Below are positions 10,884-42,461 of a stretch of 64,000 nucleotides of DNA, piece by piece. How positions within the stretch are numbered: position 1 is the first letter of the stretch; every line of letters starts with the position of its first letter. The notes under the pieces were generated by a model. The model was not told where the DNA came from and ran no database searches. It saw nothing but the letters and a program-made list of their open reading frames with translations. Origin of the DNA: Methanomicrobia archaeon (lineage in GTDB: Archaea > Halobacteriota > Syntropharchaeia > Alkanophagales > Methanospirareceae). The stretch lies in contig JAFGHB010000022.1 in NCBI GenBank assembly GCA_016930255.1, positions 14,989-78,988 of the forward strand, in the 5' to 3' direction. The translations under genes were made by a program, and so were the position numbers.

Positions 10884-11912
10884 ATGATAGAAAACGAAGA
10901 GTGGGACTTTAAAGAGTTTACGCCAGCTATTGCTTTATTAGTAGGTATTTCTGCAGTTTTGTTTAAAATAACAGAATACTTTAACACTAATATTGTAAAT
11001 TTAAGTAATCCTGCACTAATATCAGTTTATCTTTTGGTTTCCGTTTTAATCAGTGAAATTTTAATTATTTCGTTATTTATTTTAACGAAAGGGTATATGA
11101 TAGCGGCAAAGGATGAAGAATTGAAAGTATTAAGAAGAATAAATGCAATTTTAAACCGATGGCTGTTTGTTATTCCTATTTTTGTAATTATTTATTCATT
11201 TTTAAGCGTATTTTACCTTTTCGTTACAAGAAACTGGCAAGGTAACATAATCGGCTACTTTGATAGTTATTCTTGGTTGATGTTCTTTTTGGTTTCTGTA
11301 TTCATTTCCGCCATTCTGTTTACAGACATATATGAGAAGTTTAAGCTTTTATCATTTCAGTATTCAAAATATCTAGTAAAAAAGAAAATTAGATCTTTAG
11401 GTCACATATTCCAATCACCAGAAGATTTAAATAAATCAAATTTTGCTATAATTTTAACCTTATTATTCTATGCTTTTTTATTAATACTTATTCCTTTTGT
11501 ATTAATTATAATACCTACATTTTTGTTATGCGGCTCGTACTCGATCGAAATAGCAAATGCCTCCTATTCTTGCACTGATGAAATGATGGTGACGATATAT
11601 GATACGGGTGTGCCCTCATCAAGGTGTTATATCTCGTTATATAATTTGACAAACTCTAACGAGATATTCTTTGATAATAAGGACGATATAACAATTGAAG
11701 AATCCGGAAAAAATGAATCTCATAATGGATTTATGACTGGCGAGAAGAGAGATGGGATATATTATTTGTCTATAAATACTTCTAGTCTTGTTCCAAACTA
11801 TTATCTCTTAAAGTCCGAAGTAACGTACAATGATTTTCGAAACTTTGCCTTATTAAGAGCTACTAAACGAGACCATAAGTTGTTTTATCTTGCGCCTAAA
11901 AATATTAGTTGA
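10884..11912 (+). CDS. hypothetical multi-pass membrane protein encoded on a markedly AT-rich segment
   Basis: The 342-aa ORF is rich in I/L/F/K/N. The gene and its 110-nt upstream region are visibly more AT-rich than the flanking genes. Confidence 0.5.
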   Translation: MIENEEWDFKEFTPAIALLVGISAVLFKITEYFNTNIVNLSNPALISVYLLVSVLISEILIISLFILTKGYMIAAKDEELKVLRRINAILNRWLFVIPIFVIIYSFLSVFYLFVTRNWQGNIIGYFDSYSWLMFFLVSVFISAILFTDIYEKFKLLSFQYSKYLVKKKIRSLGHIFQSPEDLNKSNFAIILTLLFYAFLLILIPFVLIIIPTFLLCGSYSIEIANASYSCTDEMMVTIYDTGVPSSRCYISLYNLTNSNEIFFDNKDDITIEESGKNESHNGFMTGEKRDGIYYLSINTSSLVPNYYLLKSEVTYNDFRNFALLRATKRDHKLFYLAPKNIS

Positions 11913-11937: not shown

Positions 11938-12855
11938 CTACCACACCCGCGCCGCCCGTTGCGCCAGCTCGTTCGCATCTTGCGCCTCGCGCAGCATGCT
12001 TTCATCCAGAAACAAATAAGCAGCTCGCTTGTTGTAGTACGGCGCGCCCTTTCTCGAAAACACCGTCAAAACCTTGCCGTCGTGGTTCACTGCAACACCT
12101 TCACATTGGTAGTGACTTCGTATGACCGTCTTCACTCCCGCCATACTGAGAAATGCGTCCGTCGTCGTCTTCCCAAAGAGCATCCCGGCACCGCGTACTG
12201 ACTCGAAACAGCCGTTGCCCTCGATCGGGTCGTTCCAGAGCAGCTCCTTGAACGTGCTCGTTCCCGGATGTCTCTCGCGTGCGCGCGCAATCTCATCGAG
12301 CGAGGTTATCACGCAAGGCACGCCGCCGTGCATCATCATATACCGTCCCGTAACCAGTACCGCGTAGGGTAAATACGACCACAGCTCTTTGAGGGCCCTG
12401 TAGAGATCCTTGCCCTGCTCACCAAAGCGCTTGACAAAGAACAAAGGCAGTTCATGGGGTCTGAACATCATATCCGGCGGGCCTTCGTGGTTGCCGCGCA
12501 GCAGTACCACGCGTTCACCTTTGCCTGCGAACAACTTCAACCTCAAGACCACATAGTACATCGCAACGCTTTCATCGCCCCGATCGCCGTAATCGCCCAA
12601 AAAGATAATTCGATCCGCGTTTAAAACCTCCTGCTGCTTCAGTATATGCATCAGGCTATCCAGATCGCCGTGGAGATCGCCGATAACGACCATACTTGTC
12701 ACCGTGTGAGGGTCGATGCGCACCAATCCGCCCCCCTTGCGAGCACCCAACTCTTCACGCAATCGATCCTTCGCTTCCGTAATCAGTGCCGCAAACTCCT
12801 CCGCAGACGCCTTGAACGCCTGCTTCACCCATTCATCAACTTCCTCTGCCTTCAT
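11938..12855 (-). CDS. serine/threonine protein phosphatase, PPP-family metallophosphoesterase
   Basis: GDLHGD, GDYGDRG, GNHE and HGG motifs typical of PPP (PP1/PP2A-like) phosphatases. Confidence 0.8.
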   Translation of the reverse strand: MKAEEVDEWVKQAFKASAEEFAALITEAKDRLREELGARKGGGLVRIDPHTVTSMVVIGDLHGDLDSLMHILKQQEVLNADRIIFLGDYGDRGDESVAMYYVVLRLKLFAGKGERVVLLRGNHEGPPDMMFRPHELPLFFVKRFGEQGKDLYRALKELWSYLPYAVLVTGRYMMMHGGVPCVITSLDEIARARERHPGTSTFKELLWNDPIEGNGCFESVRGAGMLFGKTTTDAFLSMAGVKTVIRSHYQCEGVAVNHDGKVLTVFSRKGAPYYNKRAAYLFLDESMLREAQDANELAQRAARVW

Positions 12856-14160: not shown

Positions 14161-14216
14161 CGTAGAGCATAACCGTGCCGAAGAACGCGTTAAGCCATGA
14201 ATGGATTGAGTCCACT

Positions 14217-14771
14217 ATGCAACTAGGAAGAACCGGAATAACCGGAAAACCGAGGATCGGGAAGTCAACGATCATCAAGGAAGTGATACGGCGATTGAAG
14301 ACCGAAGGTATAGCGGTAGGTGGCATGCTCACAGCCGACATCCACGAAGGGGGGCGACGGGTCGGGTTCTCCATCGAGGATATACGCACGGGCGAGACGG
14401 GCATTCTGGCGCACGTGCAGCTCCACCGGCACGGCCCAAAGGTAGGCAAGTACACCGTCAATCTCACCGATTTGGATGCTATCGGTGCGCATTCGATAAC
14501 CTCTGCGCTTTTACAATCCGAACCGCAGATACTCATCATAGATGAAATCGGCCCGATGGAATTGAAGTCCACGCGCTTCCTCGACGCGGTAGAAAACGCA
14601 CTGAGCAGTAATAAACAGCTCATTGTTACCGTGCATCAGCGCTCAGCGCACGACTTGGTACGGCGGATAAAGAGCACGTTCGAGATACTGGAAATTACTG
14701 AAGCGAACCGAGAGGAAATGGTGACAGTAATCCTGAAGATGGGGGAGAACAGTCTTAATGGAGAGGGCTAG
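14217..14771 (+). CDS. nucleoside-triphosphatase THEP1 family (COG1618)
   Basis: Walker A GKPRIGKST, Walker B LIIDEIGPME, and the ~180-aa size typical of archaeal THEP1 NTPases. The ORF extends upstream to 14175. Confidence 0.65.
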   Translation: MQLGRTGITGKPRIGKSTIIKEVIRRLKTEGIAVGGMLTADIHEGGRRVGFSIEDIRTGETGILAHVQLHRHGPKVGKYTVNLTDLDAIGAHSITSALLQSEPQILIIDEIGPMELKSTRFLDAVENALSSNKQLIVTVHQRSAHDLVRRIKSTFEILEITEANREEMVTVILKMGENSLNGEG

Positions 14772-15015
14772 GGGCAAATCGCACGTCACCATACACTCTG
14801 AATAACCCCAGTTGCACATAAAGTCGGCTTTCAGTATCGCACAAATTTGCCGTCAGTTGTGCTCGTGAGGATAGAATTTGGAGTATCGCTAAACCCCAAC
14901 CAAAATTACCGTCAATTTTTGGGTTTGGCGTCTCATAAATATCCCCCGCCCTCAACACGAGAGAATGCCCTAAACTTCTCCATAGCTCTTCTTTGCTATT
15001 TTTTCCATCTCGCTC

Positions 15016-15288
15016 TTATTTTAAAACGTAACCGATGATTGCACCAAAAATCCCGTAAACTACTGCTGAGATGATTAACTCGCAGTGTGGGTACATAAAC
15101 AATGAGCTGATATAGCCTAAACCAAAACGAGCGAAGAAACGCACTAAAAATAGTGAGATGGCACTAATATGTCCTGTTACCAATGTGATAGCTGTACCAA
15201 TCACGCCGACTGCACCGCCTATTATCGCGCCTATCTGCCACGATTTCAACTTTTTTAACCAATATCTCTTTCCCATTTTAGCCCTCAA
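15016..15288 (-). CDS. small membrane protein, hypothetical
   Basis: 90 aa, two hydrophobic helices, overlaps the upstream gene by 11 nt. Confidence 0.35.
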   Translation of the reverse strand: MRAKMGKRYWLKKLKSWQIGAIIGGAVGVIGTAITLVTGHISAISLFLVRFFARFGLGYISSLFMYPHCELIISAVVYGIFGAIIGYVLK

Positions 15289-15802
15289 GAAGATCAGGAT
15301 AAGCTCTGATCACAGTGCTCTCAGCTTTTAATAGGTTCAGTGTGTCTTCGATCTCTTTATACTGCACATTCTCATCAAATTCGATGTATATCCATTCAAC
15401 TTCTTTTGCCTCCAGCGAGTATTTATCAAGATGCTCTTGAAGTTCCGTTATACTATATTCTCTATCATCTTTACCGAAACAATTTTCGAAGAAAACAAAT
15501 ATGTCTTCATCTTCCCGTTTTACTGCCGTGAGTTCTATCCGTTCCTCTTCCAATAAAGTCTCCTTTAACGTGTTAAACTCGGCCACGGGGATTACGGCGT
15601 AATAAAGCGGGCTGATCCAGTATACTCTTTTTGCGGTAAATGATACCGGTAGGTTCTCGCGCAAAAGCTCTTCGGTCCCAGACGTAATGTTATCATCTTT
15701 CAAACCTAAACGAATCCCACCAGCGTAAAGTCTACCCTCATACGTGTTCACTGCTATCACCCAAATAACGGCTGCTATGAGTACCAACACTACTACAATC
15801 AC
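15278..15802 (-). CDS. hypothetical N-terminally membrane-anchored protein
   Basis: 174 aa with one N-terminal TM helix followed by an acidic extracytoplasmic domain. Confidence 0.45.
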   Translation of the reverse strand: MIVVVLVLIAAVIWVIAVNTYEGRLYAGGIRLGLKDDNITSGTEELLRENLPVSFTAKRVYWISPLYYAVIPVAEFNTLKETLLEEERIELTAVKREDEDIFVFFENCFGKDDREYSITELQEHLDKYSLEAKEVEWIYIEFDENVQYKEIEDTLNLLKAESTVIRAYPDLLEG

Positions 15803-15893
15803 TAGATTTTTTTGTTCATGCCCTTTAATCCGCCTATCTTTACCTATTTCTTCTTCTCACTATATACCTGAACCAATAACGCCAATCGCACTC

Positions 15894-16313
15894 CTATCCC
15901 CGTCGCCTTCCACGGTATTTTACGAAAACTACCACCAACGATAGAAACACACATCCTGCCAGAATCCATAATAATATCGTTGTATTCGTAAAAATATCGT
16001 AAAAAGTATCACATAGTGATGGTTCGGGGCTTTCAGCCACGATAATCTCCCAACCATCGATCATCTCGTGGTGTAACCGCTCGTTCTCTGGTGTACGCTC
16101 GTAAACCCAGAGGGTAACTCTATATATTGACCTGTCTATGTCAGACGCAGCGATTTTCATCTCAGGGTCCTCTTTCCAGTTCTCTATTTGATCCCTGATC
16201 CAGGCTGCTTCTTCATCAGTTGCCGGTTCCGGAGCTAAGGTGGGTGCTGAACCGAGAGCGATACCTGTTGCTAGCACTGCTAAGATGATACCAATCGCAC
16301 ATAGCTCTTTCAT
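15894..16313 (-). CDS. small secreted/membrane-anchored protein. It carries the same C-terminal domain as the 16685-17629 gene product.
   Basis: Signal peptide, then MKIAASDIDRSIYRVTLWVYERTPENERLHHEMIDGWEIIVAE, then a C-terminal TM helix plus RGRRRG. The domain is shared with the 16685-17629 gene. Confidence 0.5.
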   Translation of the reverse strand: MKELCAIGIILAVLATGIALGSAPTLAPEPATDEEAAWIRDQIENWKEDPEMKIAASDIDRSIYRVTLWVYERTPENERLHHEMIDGWEIIVAESPEPSLCDTFYDIFTNTTILLWILAGCVFLSLVVVFVKYRGRRRG

Positions 16314-16400
16314 CTTCTTCTATCACTCCCTAATGTTTTATAAGTGCTTATTATTTACCTTATGTTTATTTTTGTTGATATTACTCTCATCCTCTTTATT

Positions 16401-16440
16401 TCTATAAAAAGGGAAAAAAGCTAACCTCTAAAGAGGTTAG
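16401..16440 (-). terminator. intrinsic-terminator-like hairpin followed by a T-tract (minus-strand sense)
   Basis: Perfect 10-bp inverted repeat GCTAACCTCT-AA-AGAGGTTAGC at 16419-16440, followed on the minus strand by TTTTTTCCCTTTTT. It lies downstream of the 16685-17629 gene. Confidence 0.5.
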
Positions 16441-16516
16441 CAAAAATTGTCGTAGCTCCTTACCCCCGATGTTTTAAAGTATCATTCATTTTTTCTCTTT
16501 GTGTCTTCTTATTCCA

Positions 16517-16640
16517 TTGGTCTGGTAGAGTCTTCGGCCACAATGATGTTCCAGCCATCGATCATCTCGCCGTGTAATCGCTCGTTCTCTGGTGTACGCT
16601 CATAAACTCAAAGGACAACCATCTTTTCCGCGTGATATAT
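16517..16640 (-). pseudogene. decayed fragment of the paralogous secreted-protein C-terminal domain
   Basis: The minus-strand translation ...VYERTPENERLHGEMIDGWNIIVAEDSTRPME is homologous to the C-terminal domain of the two flanking genes. It has an in-frame TGA in place of the conserved Trp and no start codon. Confidence 0.45.
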
Positions 16641-16684
16641 TGCAGTCGTGCTAATTCGCGTCTCCAGCATTTCTTATAATTCCC

Positions 16685-17629
16685 CTATTGCATCATATTT
16701 GTCTCAGCGGTGATCTCTGGTGACTTTTGGTCTTCTGCCACAATTATTTCCCATCCATCGATCATCTTTCTATGCAGTTGTTGGTTCTCCGATGTACGCT
16801 CATAAACCCACAGAGTAACTCTTTTTATCCCTCGGTCTATGTCCCATGCAGCAATTTGCATTTTGGGATTCTCTTTTAGGTCTTTTATCTTGGATTTCAT
16901 CAAAGCTACGTCATCATCGGTCACTTGAGCCAAACTTATCTTACTACTTGATACGTTACAATTTTCATCTATATACCAGGAATAAGAGGTAGTCGCATCT
17001 ATGTTGTCGCAACCGACATCGTTAGTGCTCTGAACTAAAACATACGTATCGTCCGTATCAGTGCCACAGGGCATCTGCCAATCCCCAGGCTCGATATCGT
17101 CCTCTCTATACTGAAAGAACCGCCAGTTATCAAAGTCACTCGTGCTGCCTCCCTCGTGCTCTGCGCAGACCGCATGATAAAATTCGAGATCGTTATTCCC
17201 TATGTAAGTATAATACACCGGGTCATCCTGACTTCCGTCATCCCAATCGGGATAGCAGTGCTCTGGATAAATGGCACTCCATTGCCAATAGCACTGCTCT
17301 ATTTCATCCTCAAAAGCCGGCGCGTATTGACTCTCTCCTGACCACCGTATAATCGCATTGTGCCTACACACTGCATCATTCCAGCTTTCCGATCCTCCCT
17401 GGCAATCGGATTGTCCACCTCGATAGTCCTCTATTACACCGGTCACGTATCCCCTAGATTCAATATCTAGATTTTCATCGATTACCTTACCGCCACATCC
17501 ACATCCTTCACATTCTGCTTCGGCTGTTTGGGAATCTCCTAGATAGAGTTGTGTAGATCCTAGAGCTACACCTGTTGCTATCACTACTAAAACACCAATC
17601 GTCCAAATCTTAGTCATCATTTTTTCCAC
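16685..17629 (-). CDS. Cys-rich acidic secreted protein with a C-terminal DIDR...LWVYERT...MIDGWEIIVAE domain
   Basis: Signal peptide (KIWTIGVLVVIATGVALGS), many Cys (CEGCGCGG...), and a C-terminal domain paralogous to the 15894-16313 product. It lies immediately downstream of conserved leader element copy A. Confidence 0.5.
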   Translation of the reverse strand: MEKMMTKIWTIGVLVVIATGVALGSTQLYLGDSQTAEAECEGCGCGGKVIDENLDIESRGYVTGVIEDYRGGQSDCQGGSESWNDAVCRHNAIIRWSGESQYAPAFEDEIEQCYWQWSAIYPEHCYPDWDDGSQDDPVYYTYIGNNDLEFYHAVCAEHEGGSTSDFDNWRFFQYREDDIEPGDWQMPCGTDTDDTYVLVQSTNDVGCDNIDATTSYSWYIDENCNVSSSKISLAQVTDDDVALMKSKIKDLKENPKMQIAAWDIDRGIKRVTLWVYERTSENQQLHRKMIDGWEIIVAEDQKSPEITAETNMMQ

Positions 17630-17640
17630 ATCACCCCCTA

Positions 17641-18045
17641 ACTTTTTTGGGTACTTATAAAGCGCCCCTCCTCGGCGCTTCGCCTTCCTTCTGCGGCTTT
17701 TCGCCCGTCAGGGATTCGCACCCTGTACGGGCCTCTCCTGCTTTTTTCTACACCTCATCTTCGCGCTCCTGAGCGCGAAATGTTGTGAGTTGTTTCAGCT
17801 TTAACTTAGTTAATAACCTATAGCACATTTATTATTAACCGTTGCCAATATTGCCGAAGGAAATCAATATTAGCTAACGCTGTCAGTGATCTGCACACCA
17901 AATAAGTTTCCTATAATCAGCCACGAGACTATCTCTGAGGAATCGGCCGATTCACAGAGGATCTTGGTGATCCCCATAGATTTCACCTTTAGAAGGAGGG
18001 AGGATAATTAACAAGCTTTCTTTCCTTTCCGCTTCCATAAAATTA
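17641..18045 (-). repeat. conserved leader element, copy A: promoter, structured 5' UTR and RBS shared by four operons
   Basis: Near-identical over ~200 nt to the copies at 20150, 22281 and 23645, and a further ~200 nt are shared with the 23645 copy. It contains the hairpin GCCCGTCAGGGATTCGCACCCTGTACGGGC (17703-17732), the palindrome TCGCGCTCCTGAGCGCGA, and GCGCC-CCTCCTC-GGCGC. The last reads, in mRNA sense, as an SD-like GAGGAGG in a hairpin loop. Confidence 0.7.
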
Positions 18046-18172
18046 TCCACCTTTGCTGCTCAAGCGCCCCTCCTCGACGCTCACTAATCACATCGTTCAA
18101 CCCCTGATAAAACCATCTTTTCGTTCACATTCGCCGAACGAAAAGCGAAGGTTTAAATAAAAATTGTATTTT

Positions 18173-19006
18173 CTACTCTTCACTGGCTGGTGAAGGAGTC
18201 AAAAGCGATTTCTCCCATTGATGCCCAACGTTGATAACTTCCCCCTGTTCAATGTCAACGAAAACCATTAATGTGACATTTCCTATTTTTATCGGAACTA
18301 CCGGGACTTCACCTGAAAAGTTCTCTTCGGGACCCGCTATCTCAATATGTGCTTTGCTTACATCCCCTATTTCGTATTCCTTGTTACGTATTTCTGCCCT
18401 AACCCGTTCATCCTTTAATGCAATTGCTATTGCATATCCCCTATCTTCTTCGCTTAAGTCGTGCTGCGGAGGCATCTCACCGTGCGTCAGATCTATTTCC
18501 GTAGCTAGCCCCCCGAAACGCTCCCATCGCCATTCTCCGTAATAAGGGTGCGGGGTAGCAAAATATCTTTTCCAATGAGCTTCTACTTGCACATCGTAGC
18601 TTTTACCGGCTTTTAAATCGAACGTATACTCAAAATGATAGGGTTGTCGATACTGTAACGTTATGTTTTCTGAGGAAGTTACCTCACGATCTCTACTATT
18701 AGGCACTCCAGCAAGCACGAGAATTCTCACGGGTAGGTCATCAGGCAGTGGTTCATCTTTGCTTGAACTTGAATACAGTGAGGAATCTTTATAGCGATAG
18801 GTAACATCTCCGGATAACGCCACCCGGTCCGTCGTTTCGTTGATACGAGTAACGTCCGTCCAGTTTAAATGCTCGATGTAGATATTACTATCTGGATTAC
18901 TGATTATGATGAGGTTCGTATGGAATAAAAGAAGATAGAGGACAATCAATACCGGAACGCCAACGGCAATGATTGCCTCAATGATATTCTTATTTCTTGT
19001 TCTCAT
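18173..19006 (-). CDS. hypothetical membrane-anchored protein; second gene of the peptidase operon
   Basis: 277 aa with one N-terminal TM helix. It overlaps the upstream peptidase gene by 17 nt. Confidence 0.45.
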   Translation of the reverse strand: MRTRNKNIIEAIIAVGVPVLIVLYLLLFHTNLIIISNPDSNIYIEHLNWTDVTRINETTDRVALSGDVTYRYKDSSLYSSSSKDEPLPDDLPVRILVLAGVPNSRDREVTSSENITLQYRQPYHFEYTFDLKAGKSYDVQVEAHWKRYFATPHPYYGEWRWERFGGLATEIDLTHGEMPPQHDLSEEDRGYAIAIALKDERVRAEIRNKEYEIGDVSKAHIEIAGPEENFSGEVPVVPIKIGNVTLMVFVDIEQGEVINVGHQWEKSLLTPSPASEE

Positions 19007-20138
19007 TTTTACTCTTCTGTTCCTTAACAGACGTAAACGTATCCGTTAGACCACTCGTCATCTCCGCATATATTCTCGTATACATTCTCTTCGAAGTTAA
19101 AAGATGCCTGCCTTGCCAATCGTACCATGACATCAAGTTTGTGCCCGTCCAGGTATTTGGGTCCCACAACGCGAAATTTTGCTGAGTGTCGTGATACCCA
19201 CGTACAACAACGGCATGACAGTTCCCCCACTGGCTCTCCTCGGTTATATAAAGTGGCCATTCGGTGTTTATTCTCTGCATTACGTGATTTATAGTACTCA
19301 GTAGTGAGCCCTGGTAATCGCCTTTATAGCAAGGAACATCGACTTCGTCGAAGTAAAGTTCTGCTTCTGTGGGAGACATCGGAGCATAACCATTCCATAC
19401 CCAAATGTCCCAGATATCTGGAGAATTGCTATTCCAATACTCTTCAAGCATTGCCGCACAGGTCTCACCACACGCTCTGCTGGCAGCATCGTAACCATGT
19501 CCATCGTAATACAACTCCCACTGACTACGCTGTGGTACATCAAGATATTTAGATCCTCTTGCGTCCATTGGTTGATCTGGATCATGAACGACCTCATCAA
19601 TCAGACCGTCTGAAGTACCGCGAAAAGCTACCTCATACTTCGTCTCATCAATAACTACTGATCCATGCAAGCCCCCGATACTATCTTCGAAGAATTCACC
19701 TTTGAGGGAAATCTGATTGCTCTTGTCGCTTAATTCGACGGCACACGCATACATTCTTGTAGCACCTTCATATCTTGTCATCGTTTTACCATGGAGATCC
19801 CTGTAAATCGGCTTAGCATCTTTGGGGACATTCCATCCCACGAAAATTTTCTCTGCTTTCCCTTCAAGATCCACGGCGTATGGCGTATCATCAATGGTAA
19901 TTGTACCTGCGAGCAAAAGGCAATTCTTCCCATCAATGGTACCGGATAGATACGCCTGAGCTGTTCTGTCCCCAGAAGGCTCGATTACTAGACCTCCTGG
20001 CTTATCTAAGCATAAAGTAATCTGCTTGCTTGTAGTAGCAGTTGATGCCGCATATTCTTTGGTCTGATCCTGAGCTATGGCCAGCCCGACACTGCATATC
20101 AGTATCCCTATTACGCCTATTACCCATATCTTCTTCAT
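18990..20138 (-). CDS. secreted papain-like cysteine peptidase, C39-like (Peptidase_C39_2-type)
   Basis: Signal peptide. The catalytic-Cys motif CGETCAAMLEEYW and the downstream His motif GNCHAVVVRGY resemble C39-like peptidase domains. Confidence 0.55.
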   Translation of the reverse strand: MKKIWVIGVIGILICSVGLAIAQDQTKEYAASTATTSKQITLCLDKPGGLVIEPSGDRTAQAYLSGTIDGKNCLLLAGTITIDDTPYAVDLEGKAEKIFVGWNVPKDAKPIYRDLHGKTMTRYEGATRMYACAVELSDKSNQISLKGEFFEDSIGGLHGSVVIDETKYEVAFRGTSDGLIDEVVHDPDQPMDARGSKYLDVPQRSQWELYYDGHGYDAASRACGETCAAMLEEYWNSNSPDIWDIWVWNGYAPMSPTEAELYFDEVDVPCYKGDYQGSLLSTINHVMQRINTEWPLYITEESQWGNCHAVVVRGYHDTQQNFALWDPNTWTGTNLMSWYDWQGRHLLTSKRMYTRIYAEMTSGLTDTFTSVKEQKSKNENKK

Positions 20139-20149
20139 CTTCTTCTAGC

Positions 20150-20460
20150 ACTTCCTAATTTTTGGTATTTCGCAAGCGCCCCTCCTCGGTGCCGCGCTTT
20201 CCTTCTTCGCCTTTTCGCCCGTCAGGGATTCGCACCCTGTACGGGCCTCTCCTGCTTTTTTCTACACCTCGTCTTCGCGCTCAGGAGCGCGAAATGCTGT
20301 GGCTTGTTTCAGCTTTAGATGATGAAATAATCTATAGCATATTTATTATTAACTGTGTTCGATATTACCGATAGAACTCAATATTAGCGAGTGCTTGCGG
20401 TGACCTGTACGTCAAACGAGTTCCTTATAATCTAGTGCATATTCTTTCAAACCTTTTTGA
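20150..20460 (-). repeat. conserved leader element, copy B
   Basis: Same GC-rich core as copies A and D, including the GCCCGTCAGGGATTCGCACCCTGTACGGGC hairpin and the TCGCGCTCAGGAGCGCGA palindrome (its centre is inverted relative to copy A). It sits directly 5' of the peptidase gene. Confidence 0.7.
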
Positions 20461-20528
20461 CGCTTTTTGAATGACGTCCGGTGAAAAAACGTTCGCCAAT
20501 CGAGTGATAGGAAAAATAAAAGGGGGAG

Positions 20529-21503
20529 TTAGTAAACCACCCCCAACGATTCCAGCTCTTCAGCTTGCACCGCGAGCACATAGTCGTGAAACGGCTCTTC
20601 CCTCCCTTCTGAATCAATGACCGTTCCAGTGAATGCGTATACCGGCAGAACAAAATCTTGTTTCGTTATTCGCGGTTCCATCCAATATCCAATGGATATC
20701 TCGTTGATAGTTGCTCGATCTGCCATCATCTCCAACGGTGGTTGTACACGGTTCTCGCCGGCAATTAGCTCTTTATATGCTTCTTCCGGTGTCTTTAGTG
20801 AAATTTCTCTGTAGGGCTCTATCGCTCTCCAATTCATTACTATTTCATGGACTTCACTATTATTACCTATGATCACTGCTAATTCATCGTGGCCATATAC
20901 TGGTAGGCCGTTGACGCTTCGAGAAAACCGCACGGCTAAGGACACATCGTAGGATATGATGGGTTCACTTGAACCCGCTCTCCAAATCTCGTATGTTTCA
21001 GAAACGCCCACATTTTTGAACTCTGCGTCTTCGGGCAATAGTTTTCTGGTCGAAAGATAGTCAGAAGCGATCTCCTTTGCATCGTTTTCGGATGGTAGGA
21101 TGGGCTGAGAGTCGACAGAAGCGGGATACTCCTTATAATACTGGATAGCTCCCGAAGCCTTATAAACGGTTACTTGCTTTCTTGTCCCTTCCGCCTCATC
21201 TACTAGACGAATCTTATCGTTTATACGAAGCTCTGCATTTTCAGTCAACCCAAATGTTCTACCAATGCCCTTTACGTAGTCGCTTGTAACCTCTGGAGTT
21301 ACCGTTTTATATACAAGATATGAATCACGTATCTCCGGAAAGGTGGCATTCAGCACGAATGTTGTTTCAGCACCTTCCTCGGACGGAGGGAATAGACCGG
21401 GAACCGCGTTAGTTCCTGTGTGCTCAACCCAAACCGTTGCAGCCGCAAATAGCACTGCTACCGTGACGACTATCCCTAAGATTACCCATAGTTTTTGTGT
21501 CAT
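20529..21503 (-). CDS. hypothetical membrane-anchored extracytoplasmic protein
   Basis: 324 aa, N-terminal TM, second gene after the 21519-22274 lipoprotein-like gene. Confidence 0.45.
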   Translation of the reverse strand: MTQKLWVILGIVVTVAVLFAAATVWVEHTGTNAVPGLFPPSEEGAETTFVLNATFPEIRDSYLVYKTVTPEVTSDYVKGIGRTFGLTENAELRINDKIRLVDEAEGTRKQVTVYKASGAIQYYKEYPASVDSQPILPSENDAKEIASDYLSTRKLLPEDAEFKNVGVSETYEIWRAGSSEPIISYDVSLAVRFSRSVNGLPVYGHDELAVIIGNNSEVHEIVMNWRAIEPYREISLKTPEEAYKELIAGENRVQPPLEMMADRATINEISIGYWMEPRITKQDFVLPVYAFTGTVIDSEGREEPFHDYVLAVQAEELESLGVVY

Positions 21504-21518
21504 TTTTTTTCTTCAATC

Positions 21519-22274
21519 CTAACTGCAACTATATGTCCACGTAGTATACCCTGAATTTACGGTTGGATCGGCGATAACAGAACCTTCACCCCAGATGTGG
21601 TCGTTCCCGCATGCTGAATTTTCGCCGATTATCCGTACCGTGTAATCTGAGCCATGTGTCTCGTCGATAGCGTGATACCACGCGTCTTTAACCGTCTCTC
21701 CGTCTAATAGATTATCTGCAAAATTACCGCCATCAACACAGTTCAGTGAAGAGGTTGTAAATCCACAGATCAAATGCACCCCATTGAGACCATAGTGGCT
21801 ACCCTTAAACCTATCTGGCTTTTCTGTTGAGTGACAGCCATGTAAGGCAATCCACTCCAAATCGTGATCTCCCCATTCGATCTCGTTGAAAAAACTCACC
21901 CACTTCGTATAGGTTGAAAGCTCCAGTCTGTTATTTTGCGCATGCCCCTGGTACCAGGCAATGTCGACACCATCGATGTACGTGGAATCTTGCCCATCGT
22001 GTTGAAAGTGCTCTTCTTTCGTGTTAGTATTACCTTTATCAAATTTTCGAGTCCAGCCAGCACTGCCCAATCCATTATAAAATGCTTTAGCGGAATCATC
22101 ACTATTTGGGAGATCACTGTGGGGCCAGCTATAATCTGTCACCCATTCAATGCCCACCTCAGGGGAGGTAGCATCGTTATCATCACCAGTCCCCGCAGTA
22201 GCACATGACATGAGAACCACCGAACTTACTGCTAGTATCAACGAAAGCTTCAAGCACACTGCTCTTCTTTTCAT
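21519..22274 (-). CDS. hypothetical secreted lipoprotein-like protein with conserved His/Cys motifs
   Basis: Signal peptide ending LMSCATAG; motifs IALHGCHS and GVHLICGF; no family recognised. Confidence 0.45.
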   Translation of the reverse strand: MKRRAVCLKLSLILAVSSVVLMSCATAGTGDDNDATSPEVGIEWVTDYSWPHSDLPNSDDSAKAFYNGLGSAGWTRKFDKGNTNTKEEHFQHDGQDSTYIDGVDIAWYQGHAQNNRLELSTYTKWVSFFNEIEWGDHDLEWIALHGCHSTEKPDRFKGSHYGLNGVHLICGFTTSSLNCVDGGNFADNLLDGETVKDAWYHAIDETHGSDYTVRIIGENSACGNDHIWGEGSVIADPTVNSGYTTWTYSCS

Positions 22275-22280
22275 TTATAA

Positions 22281-22355
22281 CACCTCCTAATTTTTTGGGT
22301 ATTTATAAAGCGCCCCTCCTCGGCGCCTCGCCTTCCTTCTGCGGCTTTTCGCCCC
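22281..22355 (-). repeat. conserved leader element, copy C (truncated to ~75 nt)
   Basis: CACCTCCTAATTTTTTGGGTATTTATAAAGCGCCCCTCCTCGGCGCCTCGCCTTCCTTCTGCGGCTTTTCGCCCC matches the gene-proximal part of copies A and D and then diverges. Confidence 0.65.
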
Positions 22356-22386
22356 TTCTTTGATATTTGATATTCTAAAGTTTGGC

Positions 22387-22785
22387 CTACACAACTAGCA
22401 TTATCCACAAAATAGCACCTATAATGACAAGAAAAAATCCGAGTTTTTTGTTACTATTTATTAGTATAGCTCCAGTTCCTATAATACTGAGACAAATACC
22501 CGAGTATATCCAAAATCTAAATACTACTCCAAATACAATAATATCGTACATGAAAAGGAGCATAAATGGGAGAAAGCTCACCGCTAGCACCGAAGGTATT
22601 TTACGAGACCACCCGCTATAAATTCCAACTATGAGTGGTAATGCAATTCGTCCGATTTGCGCGTAAAGCGGTCCATATTTTGGAGATATTTGCAATATTA
22701 CGGGGAAAAAAGGAAAGAGGAGGACTATAAAAAATACTAACAAAGTTAGTACCACGCTCCTCCATTTTATATGTTCATACTTCAT
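22387..22785 (-). CDS. hypothetical small polytopic membrane protein (AT-rich)
   Basis: 132 aa, four hydrophobic helices, AT-rich codon usage. Confidence 0.45.
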   Translation of the reverse strand: MKYEHIKWRSVVLTLLVFFIVLLFPFFPVILQISPKYGPLYAQIGRIALPLIVGIYSGWSRKIPSVLAVSFLPFMLLFMYDIIVFGVVFRFWIYSGICLSIIGTGAILINSNKKLGFFLVIIGAILWIMLVV

Positions 22786-22815
22786 GCGACTCTTCTCCTT
22801 CTATATTTTCATATT

Positions 22816-23637
22816 TCATGCGGTTAACTCGATAACTGGTGCTAACCCGTCGTTATCCCCCAAGTCATCATTGCCTAAGTCGGTATACCAAATATCTCCA
22901 ACGAACCCTTCATCTGCAAAGTCATCCTTTACAAAATCTTCTGCGTCTTCATAGCTGATATATTGGTGTCCCGTTCCCGTCCAACGCTCATAGTGTACGT
23001 TGGCATCACTCCAGTCATCCGCCCAGTGAGGATCTGAATATTCACTGCCGAAAATCCGTATGTGATACCTGTACCCAAAGTAATCACCGTTTTCAAGTTG
23101 ATAGTCTTGCACTTTCCAATAGGCTGTGCCACCATTCGCTGTGTCGTCGATGTACGTCCGCGCTGACCAACCTGTAGCACCATCCCATGTATTATCGATC
23201 CAATTCTGCATGTCATATTGAACATCCCAAGCGTTACCAGTATTATAAAATATCAGATTTATGGGATCATCTTCCACCCCGGGGGCGAGGACATCTTGAT
23301 AAGCCCAAAAATTTATGCATTTCTCGCCGACTTTGACTAGCTTCAACTTGACTTCAATATCATCTGGAGTCTCTTCTAGCTCCTCAGCCCAATCCTTAAT
23401 CGCTTGATTCACCAATTTTTCACCCTTTTCTCCCAAATTCTTTCGAAGGAAATTGAAATGCTCTTCGTTGGCTTCTAAGAATTCTTCCATACTTGGTTTC
23501 TTAATTGTTACGATCTCTTCCCTAATCTCTGAAGGGATCATCTTTTTGTTATTATCTGGAAGAACCGTAGCTGTTGTTGCAGCTATTGCAGTGATTAACA
23601 CCGCTACAACGATTGTCGAGATAAGCGTCTTTTTCAT
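22816..23637 (-). CDS. hypothetical acidic secreted protein
   Basis: 273 aa with a signal peptide (LISTIVVAVLITAIAATTA); rich in D/W/Y. It lies immediately downstream of leader copy D. Confidence 0.5.
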   Translation of the reverse strand: MKKTLISTIVVAVLITAIAATTATVLPDNNKKMIPSEIREEIVTIKKPSMEEFLEANEEHFNFLRKNLGEKGEKLVNQAIKDWAEELEETPDDIEVKLKLVKVGEKCINFWAYQDVLAPGVEDDPINLIFYNTGNAWDVQYDMQNWIDNTWDGATGWSARTYIDDTANGGTAYWKVQDYQLENGDYFGYRYHIRIFGSEYSDPHWADDWSDANVHYERWTGTGHQYISYEDAEDFVKDDFADEGFVGDIWYTDLGNDDLGDNDGLAPVIELTA

Positions 23638-23644
23638 TTTACCC

Positions 23645-24050
23645 TATCACCCCCTAACTTTTTTGGGTACTTATAAAGCGCCCCTCCTCGGCGCCTCGCC
23701 TTCCTTCTTCGCCTTTTCGCCCGTCAGGGATTCACACCCTGTACGGGCCTCTCCTGCTTTTTTCTACACCTCGTCTTCGCGCTTCTGAGCACGAAATGTT
23801 GTGAGTTATTTAAGCTTTAAATTAGTTAACATCCTATAGCCTATTTATTATTAACCGTTGCCAATATTGCTGCTAGGAAGTAGTATTAGCTAACGCGGTC
23901 AACGATATTAACGCTAGATAAGTTTCCTATAATCGGCTACGAGAACTATCCTGGGGGAATCTGCCGATTCAAAGAGGTTTCCGGTGATTTCCATGAACAT
24001 CGCCTTTAGAAGGGGGAATTAACGAGTCTTCTTTCCTTTTCTATCCGATC
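23645..24050 (-). repeat. conserved leader element, copy D (~400 nt)
   Basis: Nearly identical to copy A from the RBS (AAAAAAGTTAGGGGGTGAT) through the GC-rich hairpins and on into the distal ATTAGCTAACGC...ATAAGTTTCCTATAATC...CCTTTAGAAGG segment. Confidence 0.7.
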
Positions 24051-24127
24051 CGATTCGCTTCCTATCTTCACCAAAACCAATAAGGCCACGGAAAAACAGT
24101 TCTTTGATCGCCTAGCGACATGCGGCA

Positions 24128-24907
24128 TCACCTCAAAGATCGCTTGAAGATCGGTATCGCTTCCCGTTTATGCCGCGACGCTTCCACCATTCGTTTTACC
24201 CGTTCCACCACTTCGGATTCGTAACCGCTCGTGCTCTCTAAATCCCCCATTTCCAGTGCGGTAAGAGCACGATCCAAAGCCGCATAGCTCATACCGATCT
24301 CCGCTTCGTCTGTTTGGCCCGCCCAGAGACCTGCACTCGGCGCTTTCTCGATTATCTCTTCGGGAATGCCAAGCGCCTCCGCCAATTCCCGCTCTTCCGT
24401 CTTCAGCACGTCGCCGAGCGGCAGTATATCCGCAGCGCCATCGCCGTATTTGGTAAAATACCCAATAGAAAGCTCGCTCTTGTTCCCCGTGCCGACGACC
24501 AGATAGTTGAGCTGATTCGCGAAGTAATAAAGGCAGATCATCCGGAGACGCGGTTTGAGGTTCGCAATTGCCATATCTACGTCACCATCCACGTCACCAT
24601 CGTGCGGGCGCTCTTCCACATCTAACAACTCCAGCAAGAGCGTGAAGACCGGTGTGAGGTCGATCTCCTTCGTCTCGATGCCAAACCGAGCGGCAACCAG
24701 CTTCGCATGTGCTACGTCTTCGTTACGTGAAAAGCACGGGAGTATCAAGCCCAAGGTGGTATCGGGAAACGCTCGTTTACATAACACGGCAACGACGGAC
24801 GAGTCCAGTCCGCCACTCATGCCCACGACCACACCCCGGGCACCTGCTGCCTCCACGCGTTCTCGTATCCAGTCGCTTATACGCGATGCCAAGTCCGTTG
24901 GTTGCAT
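24128..24907 (-). CDS. nadE: NH3-dependent NAD+ synthetase
   Basis: PP-loop VVGMSGGLDSSVVAVLC and the ~260-aa NadE architecture. Confidence 0.85.
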   Translation of the reverse strand: MQPTDLASRISDWIRERVEAAGARGVVVGMSGGLDSSVVAVLCKRAFPDTTLGLILPCFSRNEDVAHAKLVAARFGIETKEIDLTPVFTLLLELLDVEERPHDGDVDGDVDMAIANLKPRLRMICLYYFANQLNYLVVGTGNKSELSIGYFTKYGDGAADILPLGDVLKTEERELAEALGIPEEIIEKAPSAGLWAGQTDEAEIGMSYAALDRALTALEMGDLESTSGYESEVVERVKRMVEASRHKREAIPIFKRSLR

Positions 24908-42116: not shown

Positions 42117-42189
42117 GGCCGGGGTGTGGTAGAGGCTATCCCTGGGGACTGTGGATCCCTAGACCTGGGTTCGAATCCCAGCCCCGGCC
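42117..42189 (+). tRNA. tRNA-His (anticodon GTG) with a genomically encoded G-1
   Basis: Acceptor GCCGGGG/CCCCGGC; anticodon arm GGGGA-CTGTGGA-TCCCT (anticodon GTG at 42151-42153); T arm CTGGG-TTCGAAT-CCCAG; discriminator C; extra 5' G at 42117 pairing with C73. The D arm is imperfect. CCA is not encoded. Confidence 0.65.
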
Positions 42190-42461
42190 CTTTTACAAGC
42201 AACTACTTTGAAACGGCGCGATGCAAGCTGCTCGTGCTCTGGCAGTTAAAGCTAGCCTTCTTTAAACGGAATACTCGAATGCCCGTTCTCCGAGACTATT
42301 TATGTTATTCTTCTTCCAAAGTCGCTTCGGTTCTCGGGTTTGAATAAAAGAGATAAATGTGGCAGAATACTTCCCATACTCCACACACACTAAAATCAAG
42401 CAAAAGCGATAAGTTTAAATATATAGTTGGAGATTCTTGTTTATATGGTGAAATTTGAAAA

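What the first reader, a model, noticed from the sequence alone, without database searches (positions are those of the whole stretch)
15016..24100. About 9-kb island of co-oriented secreted/membrane-anchored proteins with a shared C-terminal domain, a decayed domain copy and a C39-like peptidase
All ten ORFs are on the minus strand and have signal peptides or N-terminal anchors. Two adjacent genes (15894-16313 and 16685-17629) end in the same ~45-aa domain, DIDR.I.RVTLWVYERT.EN..LH..MIDGWEIIVAE. A third, stop-interrupted copy of that domain with no start codon lies between them at 16517-16640, which points to recent duplication, recombination and decay. The island holds a papain-like C39-type peptidase (CGETCAAM...HAVVVRGY), Cys-rich and acidic secreted proteins, and AT-rich membrane genes. 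Together with the shared leader modules this looks like a co-regulated, fast-evolving extracellular module: secreted hydrolases, surface proteins, or a bacteriocin-like processing and export set.
Basis: partly seen in the sequence, partly recalled or inferred. Interest (0 to 1): 0.6.

Follow-up and report, generated by a model that had tools for sequence, protein, structure and literature searches.

The report
Secreted cysteine-peptidase gene island in ANME-1
This 9-kb stretch of an uncultured methane-oxidising archaeon (ANME-1/Methanophagales type) is a low-GC cluster of exported proteins built around two predicted secreted cysteine peptidases, each followed by a membrane-anchored partner gene; several of its genes share one promoter/leader cassette, so it is a real but fairly ordinary accessory "secretome" island, not a bacteriocin system.

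Summary
Ten co-oriented minus-strand ORFs (15016-23637) all start with a hydrophobic signal or anchor. Two adjacent genes share a ~65-aa C-terminal domain, a stop-interrupted third copy lies between them, and one gene is a Peptidase_C39_2 cysteine peptidase.

New findings:
1. The window comes from a Methanophagales (ANME-1)-type MAG. The island is 41-47% GC, against 51-54% in its housekeeping flanks.
2. The DUF6345 gene (21519-22274) models as a clan CD (gingipain/caspase-like) fold with an invariant His and invariant Cys residues. It forms a conserved pair with the next gene in Methanosarcina, Methanoplanus and ANME contigs.
3. The C39_2 peptidase also has a conserved downstream partner. The four-gene core recurs in the same order in a related MAG.
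4. The decayed copy is the cut-off second tandem repeat of the upstream gene, not a separate gene. Orthologs carry 1-4 repeats.
5. A GCGCCGAGGAGGGGCGC hairpin/SD cassette precedes four of the island's genes (a fifth, promoter-type copy lies upstream of one leader) and many other exported-protein genes in ANME-type contigs. A 300-400-nt leader expansion was found only in this genome.

The bacteriocin processing/export reading is not supported. The Cys-rich domain and the repeat domain remain of unknown function. Interest is moderate.

The parts
22816..23637 (-). 273-aa acidic exported protein, first gene of the island
   Evidence: It has an N-terminal hydrophobic segment and 54 D+E. No Pfam or NCBIfam hit. 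It has 173 homologs among cluster representatives, some fused to PA14. N127, H192, H215 and H224 are invariant. One relative gives a weak LssY_C hit, E=0.002. A 50%-identical homolog in L068 sits behind the same hairpin cassette.
22387..22785 (-). 132-aa polytopic membrane protein (about 4 TM segments)
   Evidence: Hydropathy analysis. No family hits.
21519..22274 (-). Secreted DUF6345 protein, predicted clan CD (gingipain/caspase-like) cysteine peptidase
20529..21503 (-). 324-aa N-terminally anchored partner of DUF6345, with a weak FTP/PepSY-like propeptide motif
   Evidence: It starts 15 nt after the DUF6345 stop. The pair is conserved in M. horonobensis, M. limicola and ANME-type contigs. 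The FTP motif (PF07504) is hit in 5 of 10 family members, best E=7.6e-5; the window copy scores only 0.13. No PDB sequence relative.
18990..20138 (-). Secreted Peptidase_C39_2 (papain-fold) cysteine peptidase with a ~175-aa beta-rich N-terminal region and a frameshifted 3' end
   Evidence: Pfam hit. C223, H308, D326 and N328 are invariant among orthologs. The conserved ortholog tail ASFNFEENVYENICGDDEWSNGYVYVC lies in another frame (ORF 19024-19260). Orthologs of 68-73% identity were found only in Methanophagales-type MAGs.
18173..19006 (-). 277-aa N-terminally anchored partner of the C39_2 peptidase
   Evidence: It lies directly downstream of the peptidase in L014, L015, L016, L017 and L019 as well. 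No family hit. No profile similarity to the DUF6345 partner.
16685..17629 (-). 314-aa exported protein: conserved Cys-rich domain (about residues 60-230) plus one intact copy of the repeat domain (16715-16921)
   Evidence: Homologs and alignment. AF2 gives residues 136-302 at high confidence and residues 1-135 at low confidence. No significant structural or sequence relative in PDB.
16527..16694 (-). Decayed second tandem repeat of the 16685-17629 gene (frameshift plus two in-frame stops)
   Evidence: Region 16314-16684 is 82.5% identical to the intact 3' end plus downstream spacer of ortholog P0007 in L002. Orthologs carry 1, 2 or 4 repeats.
15894..16313 (-). 139-aa protein: signal peptide, one repeat domain (16020-16220), C-terminal TM helix plus Arg-rich tail
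   Evidence: Relatives P0015/P0016 have 3 tandem repeats followed by the same type of anchor.
15278..15802 (-). 174-aa N-terminally anchored acidic protein
   Evidence: Two homologs (56-60% identity) lie just upstream of DUF6345 in L017.
15016..15288 (-). 90-aa glycine-zipper-type small membrane protein, last gene of the island
   Evidence: The only hit is a sub-threshold Bacteriocin_IIc match (14.4 bits against a cut-off of 27.1).
23638..24127 (-). Long leader copy upstream of 22816-23637, filling the whole spacer down to the nadE stop
   Evidence: 85% identical over ~400 nt to the 17630-18028 leader. Hairpin motif at 23676-23695.
22275..22386 (-). Short (truncated) leader with hairpin and SD upstream of DUF6345
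   Evidence: Hairpin motif at 22308-22327.
20139..20528 (-). Long leader copy upstream of the C39_2 peptidase
   Evidence: 82% identical over 274 nt to the 17645-17918 leader. Hairpin motif at 20174-20193.
17630..18172 (-). Compound leader upstream of the Cys-rich gene: terminator hairpin (18117-18145), ancestral promoter plus hairpin (18062-18081), then a ~400-nt leader expansion that ends in a second hairpin copy (17660-17679) followed by the SD
   Evidence: The ortholog locus L002 has the terminator, hairpin and SD with no 400-nt insert.
16420..16441 (-). Intrinsic-terminator-like hairpin plus T-run after the decayed repeat
14942..14964 (-). Terminator-like hairpin after the last island gene

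Best explanation
The region is an accessory, lineage-typical 'secretome' island of an ANME-1/Methanophagales-type archaeon. It encodes an extracellular cysteine-peptidase toolkit plus surface-anchored proteins.

Shown:
- There are five apparent transcription units, all on the minus strand.
- Every product has an export signal or an N-terminal anchor.
- The core is two conserved gene pairs. One is a secreted clan CD-fold DUF6345 protein with a membrane-anchored partner. The other is a secreted papain-fold C39_2 peptidase with a different membrane-anchored partner.
- Around the core sit proteins built from a lineage-restricted ~65-aa alpha/beta repeat domain. Its copy number varies between orthologs, and it is often followed by a C-terminal TM anchor.
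- Four island genes, and many other exported-protein genes in ANME-type contigs, are preceded by the same 5' cassette.

Inferred:
- The proteins are exported by Sec and cleaved at A-x-A sites.
- The soluble peptidases act outside the cell, on the cell's own envelope or matrix proteins or on external proteins.
- Each anchored partner holds, folds or inhibits its peptidase at the membrane, as a trans-acting propeptide would. This rests on the weak FTP motif in the DUF6345 partner; no such evidence exists for the C39_2 partner.
- The repeat domains act as stalk or spacer modules.
- The shared cassette has a TTTTATCA box about 32 nt upstream of a GC hairpin whose loop, GAGGAGG, is SD-like, followed by the true SD. 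It makes the genes one co-regulated set, with the hairpin at or near the mRNA 5' end.
- The island is evolving fast and is partly decaying in this genome.
For: Export signals.

C39_2: with invariant Cys/His/Asp.

DUF6345: Pfam hit, clan CD fold, invariant GHG, C147 and HxxCG. In the model His111 follows the third core strand and Cys147 follows the fourth, as in clan CD.

Conserved pairs and order. L017 has DUF6345, partner, peptidase and 18173-like in the same order at 70-81% identity.

FTP motif in the partner family.

Repeat domain in 1-4 copies, attached to different heads and to TM or PGF-CTERM anchors.

Decay.

Cassette: 5 copies only in the island, 0 expected by chance. The same cassette lies upstream of the peptidase, DUF6345, Cys-rich and 22816-like genes in other ANME-type loci. 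25 of 120 metagenome pattern hits have SD and/or TATA context, and 22 of 34 downstream ORFs begin with a hydrophobic signal.

Flanks are housekeeping genes, NTPase_1 and NAD synthase, and the island has lower GC.
Against: - No enzymatic activity, substrate or expression data exist.
- The DUF6345 model has only moderate confidence (pLDDT 64.5). The catalytic Cys cannot be assigned between C147 and C170 without a residue-level superposition.
- The FTP hit in the window's own partner is non-significant (E=0.13). The 18173 partner has no detectable family.
- The two partners are unrelated to each other.
- Half of the island's proteins remain without any functional lead: the Cys-rich domain, the repeat domain, and the products of 15278-15802, 22387-22785 and 15016-15288.
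- The peptidase carries a 3' frameshift and the Cys-rich gene is truncated, so parts of the island may be non-functional in this genome.
- The cassette also precedes some non-exported small proteins, so it does not strictly define a secretome regulon.
- Signal peptides were judged by hydropathy only.
Confidence: 0.55

Rival explanations
1. Outward-directed antagonism or partner-remodelling arsenal. The C39_2 enzyme acts as a cell-wall (peptidoglycan stem-peptide) hydrolase against bacteria in the methane-oxidising consortium, and the DUF6345 peptidase and the other secreted proteins are co-effectors. The anchored partners would serve as immunity or inhibitor proteins.
For: In the literature searched, Peptidase_C39_2 is listed mainly as a catalytic domain of phage endolysins and other cell-wall lytic enzymes. 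A secreted enzyme followed by an adjacent anchored protein resembles a toxin-immunity layout. The content is fast-evolving and accessory.
Against: No cell-wall-binding domain (SH3, LysM, PG_binding) is present in any island protein. There are no PADLOC or PHROG hits and no viral relatives. An archaeon has no peptidoglycan of its own, so it would not obviously need immunity against a peptidoglycan hydrolase. Nothing here tests the substrate.
Confidence: 0.15
2. Bacteriocin-like precursor, processing and export locus. A C39 peptidase would cleave double-glycine leaders of small peptides such as the 90-aa product, which would then be exported.
For: The C39-like family name. The 90-aa protein gives a weak Bacteriocin_IIc hit (E=0.039, 14.4 bits).
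Against: The hit is far below the cut-off of 27.1 bits. The peptidase is PF13529, has its own signal peptide, and is not fused to or next to an ABC transporter. No ABC_tran or ABC_membrane domains occur in any of the ten ORFs. The 90-aa protein is a 2-3-TM glycine-zipper membrane protein with no GG leader.
Confidence: 0.03
3. Horizontally acquired mobile or viral element. The low GC and repeated leaders would reflect an integrated element rather than host genes.
For: GC is 6-10 points lower than in the flanks. The repeated 300-400-nt element looks like an insertion flanked by a 19-nt direct repeat at one site.
Against: The region has no integrase, transposase or flanking tRNA. There are no PHROG hits and no relatives in viral contigs. 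The genes and their 5' cassette occur in several other ANME-1-type MAGs, next to different genes. The DUF6345 pair occurs in cultured methanogens.
Confidence: 0.05
4. Largely decaying, non-functional remnant of a secretome cluster in this particular genome.
For: The Cys-rich gene is truncated and has a dead repeat. The peptidase has lost its conserved 27-aa C-terminus through a frameshift. Leader insertions lie between the ancestral promoter and the gene.
Against: Eight of the ten ORFs are intact and 66-81% identical to orthologs, with catalytic residues kept. The truncations leave the main domains intact. An independent read-set assembly encodes the identical peptidase, so the frameshift is at least not unique to this assembly. 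MAG consensus errors still cannot be excluded.
Confidence: 0.12

Closest known systems
Peptidase_C39_2 (Pfam PF13529; papain-fold clan CA), as found in phage endolysins and other secreted cysteine peptidases
   Same: Full-length HMM match above threshold. Catalytic Cys (ACGETCAAM), His (CHAVVVRGY) and Asp/Asn are conserved.
   Different: It is archaeal, with a Sec signal and a ~175-aa unknown beta-rich N-terminal region. It has no cell-wall-binding domain, a conserved downstream anchored partner gene, and a frameshifted tail in this genome.
Clan CD cysteine peptidases (gingipains C25, clostripain C11, metacaspases/caspases C14, legumain C13, CHAT)
   Different: No sequence-level similarity: no PDB or Pfam peptidase hit. 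The protein is small (about 225-aa mature form), with no pro-domain and no Ig-like or CTD domain. Its partner is encoded as a separate gene. No activity has been shown, and the dyad assignment is ambiguous (C147 or C170).
FTP/PepSY propeptide domains of M4/M36 peptidases (intramolecular chaperone/inhibitor)
   Same: The partner family of DUF6345 gives FTP-motif hits (PF07504) in 5 of 10 members and DUF4901 (YcdB/YcdC repeat) hits in 2. It is encoded right next to a peptidase.
   Different: The hits are sub-threshold, and the window copy scores E=0.13. The partner is a separate membrane-anchored protein next to a cysteine peptidase, not the propeptide of a metallopeptidase.
Bacteriocin/competence-peptide C39 peptidase domains of ABC exporters (PF03412)
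   Same: Distantly related papain-like fold and the family name.
   Different: Different Pfam family. There is no ABC transporter and no GG-leader substrates, and the enzyme is itself secreted.
Variable surface lipoprotein loci of Mycoplasma (vsp/vlp): an analogy from my own knowledge, not tested here
   Same: Clustered co-oriented genes share a conserved promoter, 5' UTR and signal-peptide module in front of divergent mature regions that contain tandem repeats of variable number.
   Different: No evidence here of phase variation or invertible promoters. The proteins include enzymes, and the organism is an archaeon.
Archaeosortase-type C-terminal sorting signals (PGF-CTERM)
   Same: The 15894-16313 product and relatives end in a short motif, a TM helix and a basic tail. 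One repeat-domain relative (P0021) carries a genuine PGF-CTERM.
   Different: No NCBIfam or Pfam sorting-signal model matches the window proteins. Their motif (..F.N/HP.LW.L.GC..) is different, and it also occurs at the end of membrane-bound HTH regulators in related loci.

Membership tests
Peptidase_C39_2 (PF13529) | HMM score above the Pfam gathering threshold over the whole domain | tested here: met
   41.2 bits against a cut-off of 24, model positions 1-143 of 143, residues 199-328.
Peptidase_C39_2 (PF13529) | Papain-type catalytic Cys and His (plus Asp/Asn) conserved | tested here: met
   C223, H308, D326 and N328 are invariant in 4 orthologs. Activity was not tested.
Bacteriocin-processing C39/ABC exporter system | C39 domain fused to or next to an ABC transporter, with double-glycine-leader precursor genes | tested here: not met
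   No ABC domains in any island ORF. The peptidase has its own signal peptide. The Bacteriocin_IIc hit is below threshold.
DUF6345 (PF19872) | HMM score above the gathering threshold | tested here: met
   146 bits against a cut-off of 26.9, E=1.3e-42.
Clan CD cysteine peptidases | Caspase-hemoglobinase alpha/beta fold | tested here: met
Clan CD cysteine peptidases | His-Gly after a hydrophobic strand and a catalytic Cys after the following strand | tested here: inconclusive
   G110-H111 are invariant and G112 is nearly invariant after strand 105-109. C147 is invariant after strand 141-145. A second invariant pair, H167/C170, lies on strand 168-172. No residue-level superposition was available.
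Clan CD cysteine peptidases | Peptidase activity | not testable with these tools
   Needs biochemistry.
FTP/PepSY propeptide-like inhibitor domains | Significant match to PF07504 or PF03413 | tested here: inconclusive
   FTP is hit in 5 of 10 partner-family members, best E=7.6e-5. The window protein scores E=0.13, 12.5 bits against a cut-off of 21.
PGF-CTERM/archaeosortase substrates | Match to a sorting-signal model at the C-terminus | tested here: not met
   No NCBIfam or Pfam hit for any island protein.
Prophage or integrated mobile element | Integrase or transposase, att/tRNA boundary, viral protein families | tested here: not met
   No such Pfam hits, no PHROG hits, the only tRNA is at 42118, and there are no viral-contig relatives.
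Known structured RNA (riboswitch or leader) for the shared 5' region | Match to an Rfam covariance model | tested here: not met
   No hit at the gathering threshold in the window, and none at E<=1 in 17600-18200.
Anti-phage defence systems | Match to PADLOC models | tested here: not met
   Only one spurious 11.7-bit DpdE hit.

The most novel reading that the evidence does not exclude
The GCGCCGAGGAGGGGCGC hairpin displays an SD-like GAGGAGG loop about 0-75 nt upstream of the real SD. Together with a homologous signal-peptide module, it could be a dedicated post-transcriptional (or operator) control element defining an ANME-1-wide regulon of exported proteins. This island would then be the fast-evolving extracellular protease arm of that regulon, containing a previously unrecognised archaeal clan CD peptidase family (DUF6345) that works with a trans-encoded, membrane-anchored propeptide-like partner. 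Such a system could shape the cell envelope or the interspecies matrix of methane-oxidising consortia.
Probability: 0.2. Interest if true: 0.7.

Novelty: new variant of a known kind. Interest (0 to 1): 0.42.

Why it matters
ANME-1 archaea are uncultured and carry out a large part of marine methane oxidation, and their cell envelope and extracellular biology are poorly understood. This locus offers four leads:
- A testable function for a Pfam domain of unknown function: DUF6345 as a clan CD-type cysteine peptidase with a conserved partner gene, also present in cultured Methanosarcina and Methanoplanus where genetics is possible.
- A second secreted papain-fold peptidase with its own partner.
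- A lineage-specific repeat domain whose copy number changes between close relatives.
- A recognisable 5' cassette that could be used to list a candidate exported-protein regulon in ANME-1 genomes.

None of this overturns current views. It is a useful annotation lead, not a surprise.

Tried and rejected
**Papain-like fold for the Cys-rich domain.** C76, H152 and N168-W169 have papain-like spacing in the alignment. This idea is not supported and is dropped.
- hhalign against the C39_2 profile gave 4% probability.
- The PDB profile search found nothing.
- Foldseek found nothing below E=0.27.
- The N-terminal half of the model is low-confidence.

**Long 300-400-nt leader as a widespread RNA or mobile element.** Not supported.
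- Exact-pattern scans of genome, viral and metagenome collections gave 0 hits.
- Rfam gave nothing.
- Three copies are too few for covariation: 4 of 76 pairs show compensatory changes, and the covariation term is about 0.
- The fold z-score of -4.5 is suggestive only.

**A degraded HTH regulator hidden inside the leader.** tblastn with the HTH proteins of related loci found nothing in the island.

**The two partner proteins as homologs of each other.** hhalign found nothing.

**Defence system or prophage.** PADLOC and PHROGs gave nothing.

**Other points.**
- The afdb50 fold library was unavailable.
- Sequence-level PDB searches for DUF6345, its partner, the peptidase and the 22816 family all came back empty or as noise.
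- Island insertion relative to related genomes could not be tested, because none of the fetched loci contains the nadE or NTPase flanks.

Full report
**Observation.**
- Each begins with a strongly hydrophobic 19-aa stretch.
- Two products are polytopic small membrane proteins (15016-15288 and 22387-22785).
- Three have uncleaved-looking N-terminal anchors (15278-15802, 18173-19006, 20529-21503).
- The rest look like Sec signal peptides. Clear A-x-A sites are seen for the DUF6345 protein (orthologs ASA|GTGDD) and for the peptidase (AIA|QDQ).
- These assignments rest on my own hydropathy script, not on a trained predictor.
- The island (15-24 kb) has 41-47% GC, against 51-54% on both sides.
- It is bracketed by housekeeping genes: an NTPase_1/THEP1 gene at 14175-14771 (+) and NAD synthase at 24128-24907 (-).

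**Source.** The 16685-17629 product is identical to a protein of a 'Methanomicrobia archaeon' MAG on a 106-kb contig. Its relatives, and those of the peptidase, come almost only from Methanophagales (ANME-1), 'Methanosarcinales' and 'Halobacteriota' MAGs and from metagenomes. The window is therefore best read as ANME-1-type archaeal DNA.

**Shared domain and its decayed copy.**
- DNA repeat family D3 and tblastn show exactly three copies of a ~65-aa domain in the window. Two are intact and 61% identical (16020-16220 and 16715-16921). One, at 16527-16694, has two in-frame stops and lies in a different frame from the upstream gene.
- Orthologs explain the decayed copy. P0002 (77% identical) continues past the point where the window gene stops ('..AEDQKSPEITAETNMMQ*' in the window, '..AEDQKPPELTAETISDVIRDLQEVPEMQ..' in P0002) into a second repeat. 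P0003 has four repeats and P0007 has one.
- The window's 16314-16684 spacer is 82.5% identical over 361 nt to the intact 3' end of the P0007 gene plus its downstream spacer in locus L002. It ends in the same terminator-like hairpin (16420-16441).
- The 'third copy' is therefore the cut-off terminal repeat of the 16685-17629 gene, not a separate gene fragment.
- The domain occurs in 1-4 tandem copies. It sits behind unrelated N-terminal regions: the Cys-rich domain, a PKD/PGF-CTERM protein, a Heavy_Cys_CGP protein and others. It usually sits in front of a C-terminal TM helix with a basic tail.

**The Cys-rich domain.** It has many invariant Cys, Trp and His residues but no detectable relative by sequence or structure. 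My papain-like guess is not supported.

**Two peptidases.**
- The 18990-20138 product is a bona fide Peptidase_C39_2 member with invariant Cys223, His308 and Asp326.
- Relative to four orthologs, its last ~27 conserved residues (ASFNFEENVYENICGDDEWSNGYVYVC) are encoded in another frame (ORF 19024-19260). This means a 1-nt frameshift replaces the C-terminus. An independent read-set assembly encodes the identical protein.
- The family alignment has an invariant Gly-His111 (followed by nearly invariant Gly112) after a hydrophobic strand, an invariant Cys147 after the next strand, and a further invariant His167-x-x-Cys170-Gly. This fits the clan CD His/Cys dyad, but I could not do a residue-level superposition.
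- In the literature searched, DUF6345 appears only as a name in a proteome table.

**Conserved gene pairs and synteny.**
- DUF6345 is followed within 12-15 nt by a homolog of the 20529-21503 product in Methanosarcina horonobensis, Methanoplanus limicola and ANME-type contigs.
- That partner family gives weak hits to the FTP propeptide motif: 5 of 10 members, best E=7.6e-5, with the window copy at 0.13.
- The C39_2 peptidase is followed by a homolog of the 18173-19006 product in five other loci.
- Locus L017 has DUF6345, partner, peptidase and 18173-like in the same order as the window, at 70-81% identity. It also has two 15278-like genes upstream.
- In several relatives a membrane-anchored HTH_20/ArsR-type regulator sits immediately upstream of these secreted-protein genes. 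No such gene is in the island.

**Shared 5' modules.**
- A 20-nt motif containing the hairpin GCGCC-GAGGAGG-GGCGC occurs five times in the window, all inside the island, with 0 expected by chance.
- In related loci, a short cassette precedes the peptidase, DUF6345, Cys-rich and 22816-like genes and other exported proteins. The cassette runs: terminator hairpin of the upstream gene, TTTTATCA, about 32 nt, the hairpin, 0-75 variable nt, GGAGGTGA, then the start codon.
Of these, 25 had the SD and/or TATA context, and 22 of 34 distinct downstream ORFs (pooled over all fetched loci carrying the motif plus an SD) begin with a hydrophobic signal. The rest are small non-exported proteins or probable chance hits.
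- From the usual archaeal geometry (TATA centred about 26 nt upstream of the start; established knowledge), transcription would start just before the hairpin. This is an inference.
- The SD and signal-peptide regions of the 15894, 16685 and 18990 genes are also homologous at the DNA level (D4 and D11).
- Specific to this genome, a 300-400-nt leader is present in three copies (17621-17920, 20135-20434, 23637-23936; 77-88% identity) plus a truncated fourth copy.
- At the Cys-rich gene this leader sits between the ancestral hairpin (18062-18081) and a second hairpin copy (17660-17679). It therefore looks like an insertion flanked by a 19-nt direct repeat when compared with L002.
- The leader folds better than shuffled sequence (z=-4.5). 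It has no Rfam match, no match in any collection, and too few copies for covariation analysis. Its role is unexplained.

**Interpretation.**
- The best-supported reading is an accessory extracellular module. It has two secreted cysteine peptidases (one clan CA, one clan CD-like), each with a membrane-anchored partner that I infer tethers, folds or inhibits it. It also has surface proteins built from a lineage-specific repeat domain, and its genes are expressed from a common 5' cassette.
- The substrate is unknown. It could be the cell's own envelope or matrix proteins, external proteins, or bacterial cell walls. The last option is suggested by the endolysin association of C39_2.
- The bacteriocin reading fails its defining features: there is no ABC exporter and no GG-leader peptide.
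- A mobile or viral origin has no support.
- Signs of decay in this genome (truncated repeat, frameshifted peptidase tail) mean that part of the island may be non-functional here.

**Novelty and score.**
- The components are new members or variants of known kinds of secreted peptidases. The island as a whole is an ordinary type of accessory locus.
- The clan CD assignment for DUF6345, together with its conserved partner gene, is a useful and testable lead. So is the recognisable ANME-1 5' cassette.
- Interest is moderate (0.42).

Noticed in passing
window 30150-31868 (+), within the 30-32 kb patch of 35-37% GC: A 572-aa protein with a SIR2_2 domain (E=4e-11) sits in a strongly AT-rich patch. 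It may be a defence-type gene in a second low-GC islet.
   Followed up: partly
window 10884-11912 (+), GC 32%: A 342-aa ORF with no Pfam hit lies in the most AT-rich kilobase of the window, next to a calcineurin-like phosphoesterase gene (11938-12855).
   Followed up: partly
window 19024-19110 (-) versus 18990-20138: The C39_2 peptidase has a 1-nt frameshift near its 3' end. The C-terminal 27 residues conserved in all orthologs are encoded in a different frame. The shifted reading frame runs on to overlap the start of the next gene.
   Followed up: yes
L002 9274-9795; L004 7909-8586 and 11144-11746; L005 4772-5503; L008 7360-7863; L010 6134-6535: In relatives, membrane-anchored HTH_20/ArsR-type regulators lie directly upstream of homologs of the island's secreted proteins. 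In the ANME-type loci L004 and L005 (the ones whose sequences were read) their C-terminal TM anchor (..HPGLWFLFGCLF..YLGRKK) resembles the anchor that ends the repeat-domain proteins. No such regulator is in the window's island.
   Followed up: partly
window 17760-17779 and 20274-20293: The 20-bp perfect palindrome TTCGCGCTC-NN-GAGCGCGAA inside the long leader has its two central bases inverted between copies (AG versus CT). A third copy keeps pairing through a G-to-T change. This could be an operator or an RNA hairpin.
   Followed up: partly
window 17705-17735, 20219-20249, 23721-23751 (approximate, minus strand): The long leader contains GCCCGTA-CAGGG-TGCGAAT-CCCTG-ACGGGC. This is a two-tier hairpin whose upper part looks like a tRNA T-arm (5-bp stem, 7-nt TKCGAAT loop). 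ARAGORN and Rfam do not call it.
   Followed up: partly
L022, L023, L105, L136 (metagenome loci): The same hairpin-plus-SD element also precedes a few small proteins that are apparently not exported, so it is not exclusive to secreted-protein genes.
   Followed up: no
L004 3120-4862 and 1785-2879: The related 'Halobacteriota archaeon' locus carries a serpin (protease inhibitor) and a Heavy_Cys_CGP protein near its Cys-rich/repeat-domain genes. This hints at a protease/inhibitor theme in these clusters.
   Followed up: no
window 42118-42190 (+): tRNA-His (GTG), the only tRNA or Rfam hit in the window. It is unrelated to the island.
   Followed up: yes
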